A stretch of DNA of 64,000 bases, taken from Nitrospina sp. GTDB taxonomy: Bacteria > Nitrospinota > Nitrospinia > Nitrospinales > VA-1. Position numbers and translations under genes: made by a program. Positions 1,982 through 3,448 of this stretch are shown piece by piece (the first letter of the stretch is position 1; each line of letters starts with the position of its first letter). Location of the stretch: NCBI GenBank assembly GCA_018653085.1, contig JABIAY010000057.1, positions 3,198 through 67,197 of the forward strand, given 5' to 3'. The notes beneath the pieces were generated by a model that had not been told where the DNA came from, searched no databases, and saw only the letters and a list, made by a program, of their open reading frames with translations.

Positions 1982-3448
1982 ATGTCTCTCAATACAAAAA
2001 AAATAGTGATCGCGGTCATCGGGCTGTTTTTTATGGGCGCCCTTTTAATTGTGGGCGGCATTGAAAGCAATAAGCGGGTATTGGGCAAAAAGGCCTATAT
2101 AAAGGTCTCAGCTACCAGTGAAAACTGTGTGGACTGCCATACCGTCACCAGCCCTTCCCTAGTAGAGCAGTGGAGAGACTCTAAACATGCCTTGAAGGGA
2201 GTGGGCTGTGTAGAGTGTCATGCCGCAGAATCTACCGATGCGGATGCCTGGGAGCATGAAGGAACTTTGGTCGCAGTGGTGGTTTCCCCTAAAGATTGCT
2301 CGAAGTGCCACGCCGATGAGAACGAACAGTTTCAGGCTTCCCACCATGCGGATGCCGGGAAAATTATTGGTTCCCTGGATAATGTTCTGGCCGAAGTGAT
2401 AGAAGGCGATATGGGTCGGCTTTCGCTGAATGGGCAGTCCCCTGTGGCCATCAACGGTTGCTGGCAATGCCACGGTTCGGTAGTTAAAATTATGGCTGAT
2501 GGACGGCCCGACCCTGCTACCTGGCCCAATACGGGTATCGGAAGGATTAACCCGGATGGCAGTAAGGGCTCCTGTTCTGCTTGCCACTCCCGGCACCGGT
2601 TTTCGGTGGTGGTCTCCCGCCAGCCGGATAGTTGCGGCAAATGTCATATGGGCCCGGATCATCCACAAAAAGAAATTTATGAGGAGTCCAAACACGGCAT
2701 TGCCTTCAAAGCATTCAAGCAGGATATGAATCTGTCTGCCCAGCCCTGGAGGGCAGGCATTGAGTATTCCGCCGCACCGACTTGCGCGACCTGCCATATG
2801 AGTGCGACGGAAGAATTGCCGGTGACTCATGATGTCGGCATGAGGATCTCCTGGAACCTGCGTCCGCCGATCTCGGAAAAAATAGATGCCAAGGCGATTA
2901 AGGCAGGGGAACAGGTCGTGTCCTGGGAGGACAGAAGGGACAATATGAAAGCGGTCTGCTCGAAGTGTCATTCGGAAAATTATGTGGACGGTTTTTATCT
3001 GCAGTTTGACTCGGCGATCAATTTATATAATGAAAAATATGGCAAGCCCGCCACAGCCATCATCAAGATGATGAAAGCGGGAGGCGTGCTGACCTCTACC
3101 AACTTTGATGAAAAGTTGGAGTGGACCTATTTTTACCTTTGGCATCACGAAGGCAGACGTGCGCGTCATGGGGCTTCCATGATGGCTCCGGACTACACGC
3201 AATGGCATGGTTTTTTTGAAGTGGCCGAGAGGTTCTACATACATTTTGTGCCTGAGGTGCGCGAAGCCTGCGAGGATAGGATCCGTCAGGGAGGGGATGT
3301 GGCCAAGGCGGCAAAAGTGGTTCTGGCGGAACTGGATTCGATCCTGAACCGTGAGGAGCATATGTGGTTCCTTGGGAAAATGACCGGAGATGAAAAGGCC
3401 CGAAGAAAAGCGGCCGCCGAAGAATTTAAAAAACGCTATGCACAGTAA
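1982..3448 (+). CDS. Octahaem cytochrome c of the hydroxylamine oxidoreductase (HAO)-like family, with N-terminal membrane anchor or signal
   Basis: There are eight CXXCH motifs: CVDCH, CVECH, CSKCH, CWQCH, CSACH, CGKCH, CATCH, CSKCH. The C-terminal region ([31 protein letters not shown]) is HAO-family-like. An N-terminal hydrophobic helix [19 protein letters not shown] is present. The gene starts 40 nt after cytochrome b. Confidence 0.8.
   Translation: [488 protein letters not shown]

What the first reader, a model, noticed from the sequence alone, without database searches (positions are those of the whole stretch)
1982..3448. HAO-family octahaem cytochrome encoded as the third gene of a bc-complex operon
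I counted eight CXXCH motifs in the order and spacing expected for the hydroxylamine/hydrazine oxidoreductase family. An HAO-like C-terminal helical region ([26 protein letters not shown]) is present. Unlike soluble HAOs, the protein begins with a hydrophobic helix that may act as a membrane anchor. HAO-like proteins lacking the haem-P460 cross-linking Tyr are thought to act reductively (nitrite or hydroxylamine reduction), while Tyr-containing ones oxidise. I could not decide by eye which class this one belongs to. Coupling such an enzyme directly to a quinol-oxidising Rieske/cyt b core would make a quinol:N-oxide (or reverse) oxidoreductase. Alternatively, it could simply be a large multihaem wire replacing cytochrome c1/f.
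Basis: partly seen in the sequence, partly recalled or inferred. Interest (0 to 1): 0.7.

Follow-up and report, generated by a model that had tools for sequence, protein, structure and literature searches.

The report
Membrane-anchored octahaem reductase on a bc complex
A marine Nitrospina genome encodes a three-gene operon (Rieske protein, cytochrome b, membrane-anchored HAO-family octahaem cytochrome) that most likely uses quinol to reduce nitrite; the design is already proposed for Nitrospira, so this is a further example, not a new kind of system.

Summary
ORF 1982-3448 (488 aa) carries eight CXXCH motifs, passes Pfam PF13447, and matches only HAO-family structures. The best match is Ignicoccus IhOCC (E 1e-47); MccA, OTR and NrfA do not match. 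It is the third gene after a Tat-type Rieske protein and an unsplit b6-like cytochrome b, and a terminator-like hairpin follows it.

The position equivalent to the cross-linking Tyr is probably an invariant Trp (W408) with Met eight residues before it. That is the signature reported for reductive epsilon-Hao, so I place the protein in the reductive class.

Among 84 related loci, all 24 with Rieske/cyt b upstream have the long uncleaved signal-anchor. Of the other 60, 59 have cleavable signal peptides and other quinol modules (NapC, NrfCD-like, a 9-haem/cyt b fusion). In 16 of the 22 bc-type loci with at least 3 kb of downstream DNA, napDA(B) follows directly.

The best reading is a menaquinol:nitrite (N-oxide) oxidoreductase, the same idea proposed for the Nitrospira OCC/ONR-Rieske/cyt b cluster. 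No activity was tested.

It is neither the "atypical octaheme" complex III of N. gracilis nor an orthologue of Kuenenia kuste4574.

Verdict: new member of a known kind, moderate interest.

The parts
414..887 (+). Rieske [2Fe-2S] subunit (157 aa, TTG start preceded by GGGAG). It has the twin-arginine motif SRRAFF plus one TM helix, box I CTHLGC and box II CPCHDGFF.
   Evidence: ORF. PF00355 E 2.4e-13; b6f-type PetC-like in NCBIfam, below cut-off. Sequence around the start. TM helix at residues 18-36. Box II lacks the Ser and Tyr hydrogen-bond donors in all 21 bc-type loci read. From this I infer a low-potential, menaquinol-type cluster.
853..1941 (+). Unsplit cytochrome b (b6 + subunit IV in one chain). 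It is 362 aa from GTG 853; the real start may be ATG 880, which gives 353 aa as in orthologues.
   Evidence: PF00033 E 3.5e-53 and PF00032 E 4e-8. Haem ligands H103/H117 and H204/H219 (H-x14-H, b6-like) and PEWY at residue 291. Read directly from the translation: 'WFALGG' stands where b6 has 'YCLGG', so there is no haem-ci Cys. Orthologues are 349-353 aa and overlap the Rieske gene.
1982..3448 (+). HAO-family octahaem cytochrome c (OCC, 488 aa), of the IhOCC/epsilon-Hao-like reductive type. NCBI annotates it as 'hydroxylamine oxidoreductase [Nitrospina sp.]' (MBT3185268.1).
2003..2062 (+). Signal-anchor transmembrane helix (residues 8-27, [20 protein letters not shown]), flanked by KK and ESNKR, with no AxA cleavage site.
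   Evidence: Kyte-Doolittle maximum 2.71. AF2 helix 3-30 with pLDDT 87-93. This N-terminus type occurs in all bc-linked loci and in only one other locus, L071, which sits at a contig edge.
2126..2971 (+). Eight CXXCH haem-binding motifs at nt 2126-2140, 2207-2221, 2297-2311, 2459-2473 (haem 4, the catalytic haem in HAO-family enzymes), 2573-2587, 2633-2647, 2783-2797 and 2957-2971.
   Evidence: Residue positions 49, 76, 106, 160, 198, 218, 268 and 326. All are invariant in 30 family members.
2657..2662 (+). Asp226-His227 in the invariant motif CH(L/M)GPDHP. This pair is equivalent to the catalytic Asp267-His268 of N. europaea HAO.
   Evidence: Aligned by HMMER and hhalign. Invariant in A1 and present in all 80 loci.
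2861..2863 (+). Arg294 (RISW-x-x-R-P), at the position aligned to NeHAO active-site Tyr334.
   Evidence: HMMER alignment. Invariant in A1. The RISWxxRP motif is found in 76 of the 80 loci.
3179..3205 (+). Met400 ... Trp408 (M-M-A-P-D-Y-T-Q-W), at the junction of C-terminal helices B and C. W408 is the probable equivalent of the cross-linking Tyr467 of NeHAO. Y405 lies within this stretch but is variable.
   Evidence: Tyr467 lies in NPGGWTY467TEGWGP, verified against 4FAS. An ungapped register G456xxH459xxP462...Y467 = G397xxM400xxP403...W408 puts W408 at the Tyr position. M and W are invariant in 30/30 sequences and in all 74 loci where the region could be read. The 'Trp at the Tyr position, Met eight residues before' signature of epsilon-Hao is quoted in PMC8940962. 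Helix boundaries are 378-399 and 404-436.
3425..3439 (+). Conserved C-terminal tail F482-K-K-R485-Y486 (EEFKKRYAQ), at the end of a ~70-residue extension that IhOCC lacks. Its role is unknown.
   Evidence: F482, R485 and Y486 are invariant in A1. The tail is seen in most loci. The IhOCC alignment ends at about query residue 415.
3559..3591 (+). Terminator-like hairpin (11-bp stem, 3-nt loop) followed by T8. It is the probable end of the three-gene operon.
   Evidence: Top-ranked terminator-like site in 1..6600. Sequence read.

Best explanation
The three genes encode one membrane complex. It consists of a Tat-exported low-potential Rieske protein, a b6-like cytochrome b with an intact Qo site, and, in place of cytochrome c1/f, an N-terminally anchored octahaem enzyme of the reductive branch of the HAO family (IhOCC/epsilon-Hao-like, no P460 cross-link).

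Proposed mechanism. Menaquinol is oxidised at Qo. One electron passes from the Rieske cluster into the haem chain of the octahaem subunit and on to its open catalytic haem 4. There nitrite (possibly also NO or hydroxylamine) is reduced on the periplasmic side, most likely to ammonium. The second electron recycles through the two b haems (Q cycle), so nitrite reduction would be electrogenic, unlike NrfH-NrfA. In a nitrite oxidiser, which lives in nitrite, the likely use is cheap assimilatory (or detoxifying) nitrite reduction fed from the quinol pool rather than from ferredoxin.

What is shown: family membership, the operon, co-occurrence of the anchor with the bc genes, conservation of active-site residues, and gene neighbourhoods.

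What is inferred: physical association of the subunits, substrate, product, direction of electron flow and Q-cycle energetics.
For: 1. HAO-family membership and exclusion of MccA, OTR, NrfA and TvNiR-type ONR.
2. Operon structure. The genes overlap or lie 40 nt apart, and a strong terminator-like hairpin follows. The trio is conserved in Nitrospinaceae at 72-90% identity although the flanks differ.
3. The anchor tracks the partner. All 24 loci with Rieske/cyt b upstream have the MSLxxK + ~20 hydrophobic residues + ...EG signal-anchor. Of the 60 others, 59 have cleavable signal peptides; the exception is at a contig edge.
4. The OCC behaves as a terminal enzyme module. Orthologues sit next to NapC/NirT (E 9e-58), next to tetrahaem + 4Fe-4S + NrfD, or next to a 9-haem/cyt b561 fusion. 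Partner type follows OCC subclades. This is the same modularity as NrfA with NrfH or NrfBCD.
5. Link to N-oxides. Of the 22 bc-type loci with at least 3 kb downstream, 16 have napD-napA(-napB) directly after the OCC, without NapC or NapGH, against 6 of 54 non-bc loci.
6. Active site. Asp226-His227 are invariant and there is no CXXCK.
7. Reductive class. The M400-x7-W408 signature is invariant, and the nearby Tyr residues are variable.
8. Low-potential Rieske box II, with menaquinone (futalosine-pathway) genes flanking the operon.
9. Literature. The same three-gene design in Nitrospira is proposed to be a quinol-coupled assimilatory nitrite reductase, is expressed when nitrite is the only N source, and has NapC as an alternative partner (PMC6311188; PMC6606698; PMC5767232; PMC12342949). 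Epsilon-Hao enzymes reduce nitrite and hydroxylamine in vitro (PMC8042395).
10. N. gracilis has a separate complex-III-like operon, so a c1 substitute is not needed here.
Against: - No activity, spectrum or co-purification was tested. Substrate and product are inferred from relatives.
- I could not retrieve a Nitrospira OCC or an epsilon-Hao sequence to prove orthology.
- The C-terminal region aligns with NeHAO only by a short motif register. hhalign and phmmer were not significant, so W408 = Tyr467 is probable, not proven. The window protein also has a Tyr (Y405) three residues earlier.
- The window has no nitrogen-assimilation or nap genes nearby, and N. gracilis already has NirA/NirC.
- The AF2 model is poor in the haem core (pLDDT 63.8), so five-coordination of haem 4 was not checked.
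- HAO-family enzymes are trimers and bc complexes are dimers, so the stoichiometry of a stable complex is unclear. AlphaFold3 also failed for kuste4574 with its bc complex (bioRxiv 10.1101/2025.06.25.661457).
Confidence: 0.6

Rival explanations
1. Pure electron wire. The octahaem protein only replaces cytochrome c1/f and passes electrons between the Rieske cluster and soluble or periplasmic partners (cytochrome c, NXR, NapAB), in either direction, without catalysing anything itself.
For: It is the only c-type cytochrome in the operon. In most bc-type loci NapDAB follows without NapC or NapGH, so the OCC probably does hand electrons on to NapAB there. Nitrite oxidisers need reverse electron flow into the quinone pool (PMC3578206).
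Against: The catalytic Asp-His pair and the whole pocket motif are invariant in bc-type and non-bc-type members alike. Soluble orthologues are wired to NapC, NrfCD-like or cyt b561 modules, where they are the terminal component. N. gracilis has a separate complex-III-like operon with its own 767-aa octahaem protein. Wiring and catalysis are not mutually exclusive.
Confidence: 0.12
2. A reductive enzyme, but with a different reaction. It could reduce nitrite to NO (as Kuenenia HAOr does), or detoxify NO or hydroxylamine, or reduce a non-nitrogen substrate, rather than carry out six-electron nitrite ammonification.
For: Kuenenia HAOr, which lacks the Tyr, makes NO from nitrite (PMC8042395; bioRxiv 10.1101/2025.03.25.645162). 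NeHAO Tyr334 is replaced by an invariant Arg and IhOCC has Val for the His, so pockets differ within the family. N. gracilis already has NirA for assimilation.
Against: The protein is much closer to IhOCC (E 1e-47) than to HAOr (E 6e-21). The Nitrospira homologous cluster is expressed when ammonium must be made from nitrite. Epsilon-Hao produces ammonium according to PMC8042395's summary. The nap linkage suits nitrate ammonification.
Confidence: 0.15
3. Oxidative HAO. Tyr405 (or Tyr383) forms a P460 cross-link and the enzyme oxidises hydroxylamine or NO, feeding electrons towards the bc complex.
For: The window protein has Tyr at 405, in the loop/helix junction where NeHAO carries Tyr467, and 'WTY' at 381-383 resembles NeHAO 'WTY467'. 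Public annotation calls it hydroxylamine oxidoreductase.
Against: Position 405 is Y, F, W or I among orthologues, with Phe in three bc-type loci. Position 383 is Y, W or F. A covalent cross-linker should be invariant. The invariant M-x7-W matches the reductive epsilon-Hao signature. The hhalign match of WTY is not significant (E 0.17). NeHAO Tyr334 is not conserved. The closest solved relative, IhOCC, has no P460 (PMC9250108). Pushing electrons backwards through a bc complex would cost energy.
Confidence: 0.03

Closest known systems
Nitrospira OCC/'ONR' with upstream Rieske/cytochrome b genes (Koch et al. 2015; reviewed in PMC6311188, PMC6606698, PMC12342949)
   Same: Same three-gene order (Rieske, cyt b, octahaem cytochrome) in a nitrite oxidiser. 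The same alternative partner (NapC) occurs in some lineages, as I see across this family. The same proposed mechanism applies: quinol-coupled periplasmic nitrite reduction.
   Different: In Nitrospira the cluster lies among glnA/amtB/glnK nitrogen-assimilation genes. Here the flanks are menaquinone and chemotaxis genes plus a Cyc2-like/c7 cassette. Sequence orthology to the Nitrospira protein was not tested. Neither protein has been characterised biochemically.
Epsilonproteobacterial Hao (epsilon-Hao; Haase et al. 2017)
   Same: HAO-family octahaem protein without the cross-link Tyr. It has Trp at that position with Met eight residues upstream (M400/W408 here). It is linked to the quinol pool. 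It is a nitrite/hydroxylamine reductase in vitro (PMC8042395, PMC8940962).
   Different: From my own knowledge (not checked here), its partner is a NapC/NrfH-type tetrahaem cytochrome and the enzyme is soluble. Here the partner is Rieske/cyt b and the enzyme carries its own membrane anchor. Gammaproteobacterial members of this family do have the NapC-type partner.
Ignicoccus hospitalis IhOCC (PDB 4QO5; Parey et al. 2016)
   Same: Best solved relative (E 1e-47 by sequence, 6.7e-66 by profile; best Foldseek hit). It is a membrane-associated octahaem cytochrome of the HAO clade without P460 and is described as a nitrite reductase.
   Different: About 25% identity. IhOCC has a ~100-residue insertion between haems 7 and 8 and lacks the ~70-residue C-terminal extension with the invariant RY tail. 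It has Val in place of His227. It is archaeal.
Kuenenia stuttgartiensis Rieske/cyt b complex R/b-3 (kuste4569-4574) with HAO-like kuste4574
   Same: A Rieske/cyt b complex associated with an HAO-like octahaem protein that lacks the Tyr and is thought to reduce nitrite. Co-migration of the subunits was observed.
   Different: Kuenenia has split b6/subunit IV, an additional multihaem c subunit and an NAD(P) oxidoreductase subunit. Its Rieske protein keeps Ser/Tyr (+303 mV). kuste4574 is a close homologue of HAOr (kustc0458), to which the window protein is only distantly related (E 6e-21). NO is the proposed product.
Oxidative HAO/HOX/HDH (N. europaea 1FGJ/4FAS, Kuenenia 4N4J, 6HIF)
   Same: Same fold family and haem order. 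Five of the seven inter-motif gaps are similar, the Asp-His pair is shared, and three C-terminal helices are present.
   Different: There is no invariant Tyr at the cross-link position, and Tyr334 is replaced by Arg. The protein is membrane-anchored. The haem 1->2 and 4->5 spacings differ.
NrfA with NrfH or NrfBCD (cytochrome c nitrite reductase systems)
   Same: It works alike: a periplasmic multihaem nitrite reductase plugged into the quinol pool through interchangeable membrane modules. NapC/NrfH-type and NrfCD-type partners are found next to orthologues here.
   Different: NrfA is a different clade (pentahaem, CXXCK Lys-ligated active haem) with no significant sequence match (E >= 0.3). 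NrfH-type coupling is electroneutral, whereas a Rieske/cyt b Q cycle would be electrogenic (my inference).
Nitrospina gracilis complex-III-like operon with 'atypical octaheme cytochrome c' (Lücker et al. 2013)
   Same: Same genus. It is also a b6f-like Rieske/cyt b operon next to an octahaem cytochrome.
   Different: It is a different complex: petC 187 aa, split petB/petD (274 + 270 aa) and a 767-aa octahaem protein (NITGRv1_700035-39). The window operon matches the separately listed unsplit qcrB of 353 aa (NITGRv1_570009), whose neighbours the paper did not discuss.

Membership tests
HAO family of octahaem cytochromes c (Pfam PF13447; structural clade HAO/HDH/IhOCC) | Eight CXXCH motifs in the HAO order, with no CXXCK | tested here: met
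   Motifs at residues 49, 76, 106, 160, 198, 218, 268 and 326. They use 16 of 17 Cys. Five of the seven gaps are close to those of NeHAO.
HAO family of octahaem cytochromes c (Pfam PF13447; structural clade HAO/HDH/IhOCC) | Significant sequence or profile similarity to solved HAO-family members and not to other octahaem families (MccA, OTR, TvNiR-type ONR) | tested here: met
   PF13447 at 96 bits against a 21.9 cut-off. PDB hits: 4QO5 1e-47, 6H5L, 1FGJ, 4N4J, 6T5E and 6HIF at 1e-14 to 1e-21. ONR and NrfA score E >= 0.28; MccA and OTR are absent. The Foldseek top 10 are all HAO family (the model has low confidence).
HAO family of octahaem cytochromes c (Pfam PF13447; structural clade HAO/HDH/IhOCC) | Catalytic Asp-His pair after the haem-6 motif (NeHAO D267/H268) | tested here: met
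   D226/H227 in the invariant GPDHP motif.
HAO family of octahaem cytochromes c (Pfam PF13447; structural clade HAO/HDH/IhOCC) | Five-coordinate catalytic haem 4 and homotrimeric assembly through three C-terminal helices | not testable with these tools
   Only secondary structure could be checked. Long helices at 332-367, 378-399 and 404-436 are predicted with high pLDDT. The haem core is modelled poorly, and neither cofactors nor oligomers were modelled.
Oxidative P460-type HAO (HAO, HOX, HDH) | Invariant Tyr that cross-links to haem 4 of the neighbouring subunit (NeHAO Tyr467) | tested here: not met
   The ungapped motif register puts the invariant W408 at the Tyr467 position. Nearby Y405 varies (Y/F/W/I) and Y383 varies (Y/W/F) among 74 orthologues. 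The register rests on a short motif; automatic alignments of this region were not significant.
Oxidative P460-type HAO (HAO, HOX, HDH) | Active-site Tyr334 (NeHAO numbering) | tested here: not met
   It aligns to the invariant Arg294.
Epsilon-Hao-type reductive HAO (Haase et al. 2017) | Trp at the Tyr position with a conserved Met eight residues upstream | tested here: met
   M400-x7-W408 is invariant in 30/30 sequences and in all 74 loci read. The signature is as quoted in PMC8940962. I could not read the original paper.
Epsilon-Hao-type reductive HAO (Haase et al. 2017) | Encoded with a NapC/NrfH-type quinol dehydrogenase; soluble periplasmic enzyme | tested here: not met
   The window has Rieske/cyt b and a signal-anchor instead. 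Gammaproteobacterial orthologues do have a NapC/NirT neighbour.
Epsilon-Hao-type reductive HAO (Haase et al. 2017) | Nitrite and hydroxylamine reductase activity | not testable with these tools
   This needs an enzyme assay.
Rieske/cytochrome b (bc1/b6f-type) complex | Rieske protein with CxHxGC...CxCH boxes and a Tat signal-anchor | tested here: met
   CTHLGC...CPCH, SRRAFF and a TM helix at 18-36.
Rieske/cytochrome b (bc1/b6f-type) complex | Cytochrome b with two His pairs for haems bL/bH and the PEWY Qo motif | tested here: met
   H103/H117, H204/H219 and PEWY at 291. PF00033 + PF00032.
Rieske/cytochrome b (bc1/b6f-type) complex | A membrane-anchored c-type cytochrome subunit that physically belongs to the complex | tested here: inconclusive
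   Co-operonic, and the anchor co-occurs strictly with the bc genes (24 of 24 against 1 of 60). Physical association was not tested. The anchor is N-terminal, unlike that of c1/f.
Nitrospira OCC/ONR-Rieske/cyt b nitrite-assimilation module | Octahaem cytochrome gene directly preceded by Rieske and cytochrome b genes | tested here: met
   Conserved in Nitrospinaceae relatives.
Nitrospira OCC/ONR-Rieske/cyt b nitrite-assimilation module | Located within a nitrogen-assimilation gene cluster (glnA, amtB, glnK) | tested here: not met
   No such genes were found near the operon in 1-12 kb or among the ten large ORFs scanned elsewhere in the window. In relative L081 a glutamate synthase gene lies 2.5 kb downstream and an NtrC-like system lies upstream.
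Nitrospira OCC/ONR-Rieske/cyt b nitrite-assimilation module | Sequence orthology to the N. moscoviensis / N. japonica OCC | not tested
   No Nitrospira sequence was among the listed hits or the 80 loci kept.
Kuenenia R/b-3 complex (kuste4569-4574) | Split b6/subunit IV, an extra multihaem c subunit, an NAD(P) oxidoreductase subunit and an HAOr-type OCC | tested here: not met
   The cyt b is unsplit and the operon has only three genes. The OCC is far closer to IhOCC than to kustc0458.

The most novel reading that the evidence does not exclude
In marine Nitrospinales the bc-octahaem complex may be one end of an extracellular or periplasmic electron conduit, not only a nitrite-assimilation device. 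A Cyc2-like monohaem cytochrome-porin, a periplasmic c7-type trihaem cytochrome and an unknown exported protein lie directly downstream in the window. The same cassette is conserved next to the operon in a second lineage (L086, OCC 79% identical), and a distant Cyc2-like gene plus a cytochrome c lie next to it in a third (L085).

If these proteins work together, electrons from an outside donor such as Fe(II) could reach the octahaem subunit. From there they could reduce nitrite directly, or be driven backwards through the low-potential Rieske/cyt b core into menaquinone. That would give a major ocean nitrite oxidiser a second lithotrophic input.
Probability: 0.08. Interest if true: 0.75.

Novelty: new member of a known kind. 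Interest (0 to 1): 0.4.

Why it matters
Nitrospina is the main nitrite oxidiser of the ocean. A periplasmic nitrite reductase fed from quinol through a Q-cycle complex would make nitrogen assimilation from nitrite much cheaper than the ferredoxin-dependent NirA route. It could even return some proton-motive force, which changes estimates of the organism's energy budget.

The gene is annotated as 'hydroxylamine oxidoreductase/dehydrogenase' in NCBI and JGI records. Metagenome surveys that count 'hao' as a marker of ammonia oxidation will therefore miscount it.

In Acidobacteriota, Bacteroidota, Calditrichota, Myxococcota and Leptospiraceae it usually sits in a Rieske-cyt b-OCC-napDAB operon. 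That arrangement looks like a complete NrfA-free and NapC-free route from nitrate to ammonium, and it deserves biochemical study.

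Tried and rejected
1. Tyr405 as the cross-link residue. I first aligned it to Tyr467 by inserting a gap. I rejected this because the position is Y/F/W/I among orthologues, and because the ungapped register reproduces the published Met-x7-Trp signature.

2. 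Tyr383 ('WTY'). This was hhalign's best local match to NeHAO 'WTY467', but it is not significant (E 0.17), lies inside helix B, and varies as Y/W/F.

3. Automatic alignment of the C-terminal region to NeHAO, HOX or HDH. phmmer, hmmsearch and hhalign all stop at about residue 372, or find nothing.

4. Identity with the 'atypical octaheme cytochrome c' of the N. gracilis complex III. Rejected: that protein is 767 aa and sits next to a split cyt b.

5. Orthology with kuste4574. Rejected: kuste4574 is HAOr-like, and HAOr is only a distant hit.

6. MccA, OTR, TvNiR-type ONR and NrfA families. There is no significant match.

7. The downstream 418-aa gene as a fourth operon member. Rejected because of the terminator-like hairpin and its absence from 80 loci in other phyla. 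It does recur in one Nitrospinales relative.

8. The AF2 model of the OCC has low confidence in the haem core (pLDDT 63.8), so I drew no geometric conclusions from it.

9. The afdb50 fold library was not available.

Koch 2015 and Parey 2016 are not held in the library.

Full report
**Observation**

The ORF at 1982..3448 (+) is 488 aa. It has CXXCH motifs at residues 49, 76, 106, 160, 198, 218, 268 and 326. These use 16 of its 17 cysteines, and there is no CXXCK. Only four other ORFs of at least 80 aa in the whole window contain even one such motif.

The protein passes Pfam PF13447 (96 bits, cut-off 21.9). Against all PDB sequences it matches only HAO-family chains:

| PDB chain | E-value |
|---|---|
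| IhOCC 4QO5 | 1.2e-47 |
| kustc0458 6H5L | 6e-21 |
| N. europaea HAO | 4e-20 |
| KsHOX | 2e-16 |
| HDH | 1e-14 |
| NrfA, TvNiR-type ONR | >= 0.28 |
| MccA, OTR | no hit |

These values are, and a family profile gives the same picture. A low-confidence AF2 model (pLDDT 63.8) also finds only HAO-family structures with Foldseek; NrfA scores E 0.84.

Motif spacing is 27/30/54/38/20/50/58 residues. NeHAO has 66/27/57/10/20/51/50, read from PDB alignments. Five of the seven gaps agree.

**Operon**

- Upstream lies a Rieske gene (414..887). It has PF00355, the twin-arginine motif SRRAFF, one TM helix and a TTG start behind GGGAG.
- Next is an unsplit b6-like cytochrome b (853 or 880..1941). It has His pairs 103/117 and 204/219 and PEWY at 291.
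- The octahaem gene starts 40 nt after cyt b.
- About 110 nt after its stop there is an 11-bp hairpin followed by T8, the best terminator-like site in the region.

The source is an uncultured marine Nitrospina sp. The identical protein is MBT3185268.1, named 'hydroxylamine oxidoreductase' and seen on 124 contigs. The rest of the window encodes housekeeping functions.

**Cross-link tyrosine**

I verified against PDB 4FAS that NeHAO Tyr467 lies in HVGLAHVNPGGWTY467TEGWGP. Automatic methods do not align this region with the window protein, so the comparison rests on a short motif.

The ungapped register is G456-x-x-H459-x-x-P462...Y467 = G397-x-x-M400-x-x-P403...W408. It places an invariant Trp at the Tyr position with an invariant Met eight residues before it. 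That is the signature reported for the reductive epsilon-Hao enzymes, as quoted in PMC8940962. Both residues are conserved in 30/30 aligned relatives and in all 74 loci where the region could be read.

The two nearby tyrosines are not conserved. Position 405 is Y/F/W/I, with Phe in three bc-linked loci and Trp in anammox members. Position 383 is Y/W/F. AF2 puts residue 383 inside helix B and residues 400-408 at the B/C junction.

NeHAO Asp267/His268 correspond to the invariant D226/H227. NeHAO Tyr334 corresponds to the invariant R294. I conclude, with moderate confidence, that the protein belongs to the non-cross-linked, reductive class.

**Relatives and neighbourhoods**

The family is very large.

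In the 80 best loci plus those fetched later, the N-terminus type follows the neighbouring genes:

| Locus type | Count | N-terminus of the OCC |
|---|---|---|
| Rieske + cyt b immediately upstream | 24 | 'MSLxxK + ~20 hydrophobic residues + ...EG' signal-anchor in all 24 |
| No bc genes | 60 | Classical cleavable signal peptide in 59; the exception (L071) lies at a contig edge |

The soluble forms sit beside other quinol-dehydrogenase modules:

- a NapC/NirT tetrahaem protein (E 9e-58) in Gammaproteobacteria;
- a tetrahaem + 4Fe-4S + NrfD set in Planctomycetota, Verrucomicrobiota and Bdellovibrionales;
- a 9-haem/cytochrome b561 fusion in Methylococcales.

Partner type follows the OCC tree. 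This is the behaviour of a terminal periplasmic enzyme, like NrfA with NrfH or NrfBCD, and not of a dedicated c1 substitute.

In 16 of the 22 bc-type loci with enough downstream DNA, napD-napA(-napB) follows the OCC directly, without NapC or NapGH. The figure is 6 of 54 for non-bc loci. This ties the module to nitrate/nitrite reduction. It also suggests that in those organisms the octahaem subunit both reduces nitrite and passes electrons to NapAB.

Nitrospinaceae relatives (72-90% identity) keep the trio but have no nap genes and have varying flanks.

All bc-type Rieske proteins have box II CPCH-x-(G/A)-x-F. They therefore lack the Ser and Tyr that raise the cluster potential; the effect of these residues is described in bioRxiv 10.1101/2025.06.25.661457. 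This fits a menaquinol-oxidising complex. The operon is flanked by MqnE and a UbiA-family fragment.

**Mechanism (inferred)**

Menaquinol is oxidised at Qo. One electron goes from the Rieske cluster to the OCC haem chain and on to haem 4, where nitrite (perhaps also NO or hydroxylamine) is reduced, probably to ammonium. The other electron recycles through the b haems.

With a standard Q cycle, six electrons to nitrite would move six charges across the membrane. The reaction would then conserve energy, unlike NrfH-NrfA. This is textbook stoichiometry applied by me; it was not tested.

**Comparison with the literature**

The design is published for Nitrospira. There an octahaem cytochrome ('OCC/ONR') with two upstream Rieske/cyt b genes is proposed to reduce nitrite for assimilation using quinol. 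It is expressed when nitrite is the only N source, NapC replaces the bc genes in some lineages, and no biochemistry has been done.

For Nitrospina gracilis, the 2013 genome paper describes a different complex: a split petB/petD with a 767-aa octahaem protein. It lists only an isolated unsplit qcrB of 353 aa, which matches the cyt b length seen here.

Kuenenia's kuste4569-4574 is analogous in concept. It differs in subunit composition, in Rieske type and in the OCC subfamily.

The finding is therefore a new member of a known kind.

**Limits**

- Orthology to the Nitrospira OCC and to epsilon-Hao was not shown directly.
- The Tyr/Trp register is motif-based.
- Haem coordination, oligomeric state, complex formation, substrate and product are untested.
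- How a trimer-forming enzyme would dock on a dimeric bc core is unexplained.

**Side observations**

The next gene (3743..4999) encodes a fused monohaem cytochrome-porin resembling Cyc2. It is followed on the other strand by an exported protein of unknown function and a c7-type trihaem cytochrome. This cassette is conserved next to the operon in one other Nitrospinales genome, which leaves a small chance of a functional link.

Noticed in passing
window 3743-4999 (+): A 418-aa protein with a signal peptide and a single CSTCH near the N-terminus, in the motif AVSQWSRKY-KVE-CSTCH-VAF-PRL. The AF2 model is a confident beta-barrel (pLDDT 88.8) ending in ...IRTMF, and Foldseek matches 16-strand porins including OprO. 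It resembles the Cyc2 fused cytochrome-porin iron oxidase: PXL lies 4 residues after CXXCH and R-K-Y lies upstream, but P, F and A of the published AXPXFAR[Q/K][T/Y] motif are replaced by S, W and S. Its family has about 1350 representative clusters. NCBI calls it a hypothetical protein. It appears to be a separate transcription unit.
   Followed up: partly
window 5051-6182 (-); L086 7586-10059: A c7-type trihaem cytochrome (5802-6182, TIGR04257 E 4e-21) and an exported 243-aa protein without a family (5051-5782) converge on the Cyc2-like gene. The three-gene cassette (51%, 45% and 47% identity) lies in the same place after the bc-OCC operon in a Nitrospinales MAG whose OCC is 79% identical. 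A 90%-identical Nitrospina relative (L085) lacks it there, but has a distant Cyc2-like gene and a cytochrome c upstream.
   Followed up: partly
L083 6427-12115; L084 6394-12592; also L002, L003, L006, L008, L032, L041, L049, L064, L068, L070, L077, L078: In Acidobacteriota, Calditrichota, Myxococcota, Leptospiraceae and others the operon reads Rieske - cyt b - OCC - napD - napA (- napB), with no NapC/NapGH and no NrfA. This looks like a self-contained periplasmic nitrate-to-ammonium module driven by a bc-type complex. I could not check whether it has been described.
   Followed up: partly
L010 7447-8028; L026 7377-9425; L035 2916-5954; L047 7571-10288: Soluble orthologues of the OCC are paired with three other quinol modules: a NapC/NirT tetrahaem cytochrome, a 9-haem + cytochrome b561 fusion protein, and a tetrahaem + 4Fe-4S + NrfD set. 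Partner type follows the OCC phylogeny.
   Followed up: yes
window 3140-3174 (residues 387-398) and 3359-3439 (residues 460-486): The block [11 protein letters not shown] is invariant across the family. A ~70-residue C-terminal extension absent from IhOCC carries invariant H460, W462, G465, R475, F482, R485 and Y486 (...EEFKKRYAQ). Neither feature has an explanation. The C-terminal Tyr has not been excluded as a residue that reaches a neighbouring subunit.
   Followed up: no
L083 12854-13009: A short stretch about 750 bp downstream of napA translates to a 52-residue peptide that is 52% identical to the C-terminal tail (residues 437-488) of the OCC. It may be a gene remnant or a small paralogous ORF.
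   Followed up: no
window 59-304 (+) and 6520-7659 (+): Menaquinone-related genes flank the cluster: the 3' end of a UbiA-family prenyltransferase gene and MqnE, aminofutalosine synthase (TIGR03700, 490 bits, above cut-off). MqnE follows the OCC directly in the 90%-identical relative L085.
   Followed up: partly
window 8922-11762 (+): The CheA-like kinase (946 aa) appears to carry two near-identical N-terminal Hpt-type segments (…IVNEFLVESYENLD…DPGD…SSIFRTIHTIKGTCGFIG…, at about residues 27-140 and 190-300), judged by eye from the translation. It follows CheY (7879-8256) and a CheX-like gene (8322-8840) (domain names taken from the relative).
   Followed up: no
window 1982-3448 (annotation issue): Public records name this protein and its relatives 'hydroxylamine oxidoreductase' or 'hydroxylamine dehydrogenase' (NCBI, JGI), although it lacks the oxidative hallmark. 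Counting such genes as 'hao' in ocean metagenomes would overstate the potential for ammonia oxidation.
   Followed up: partly
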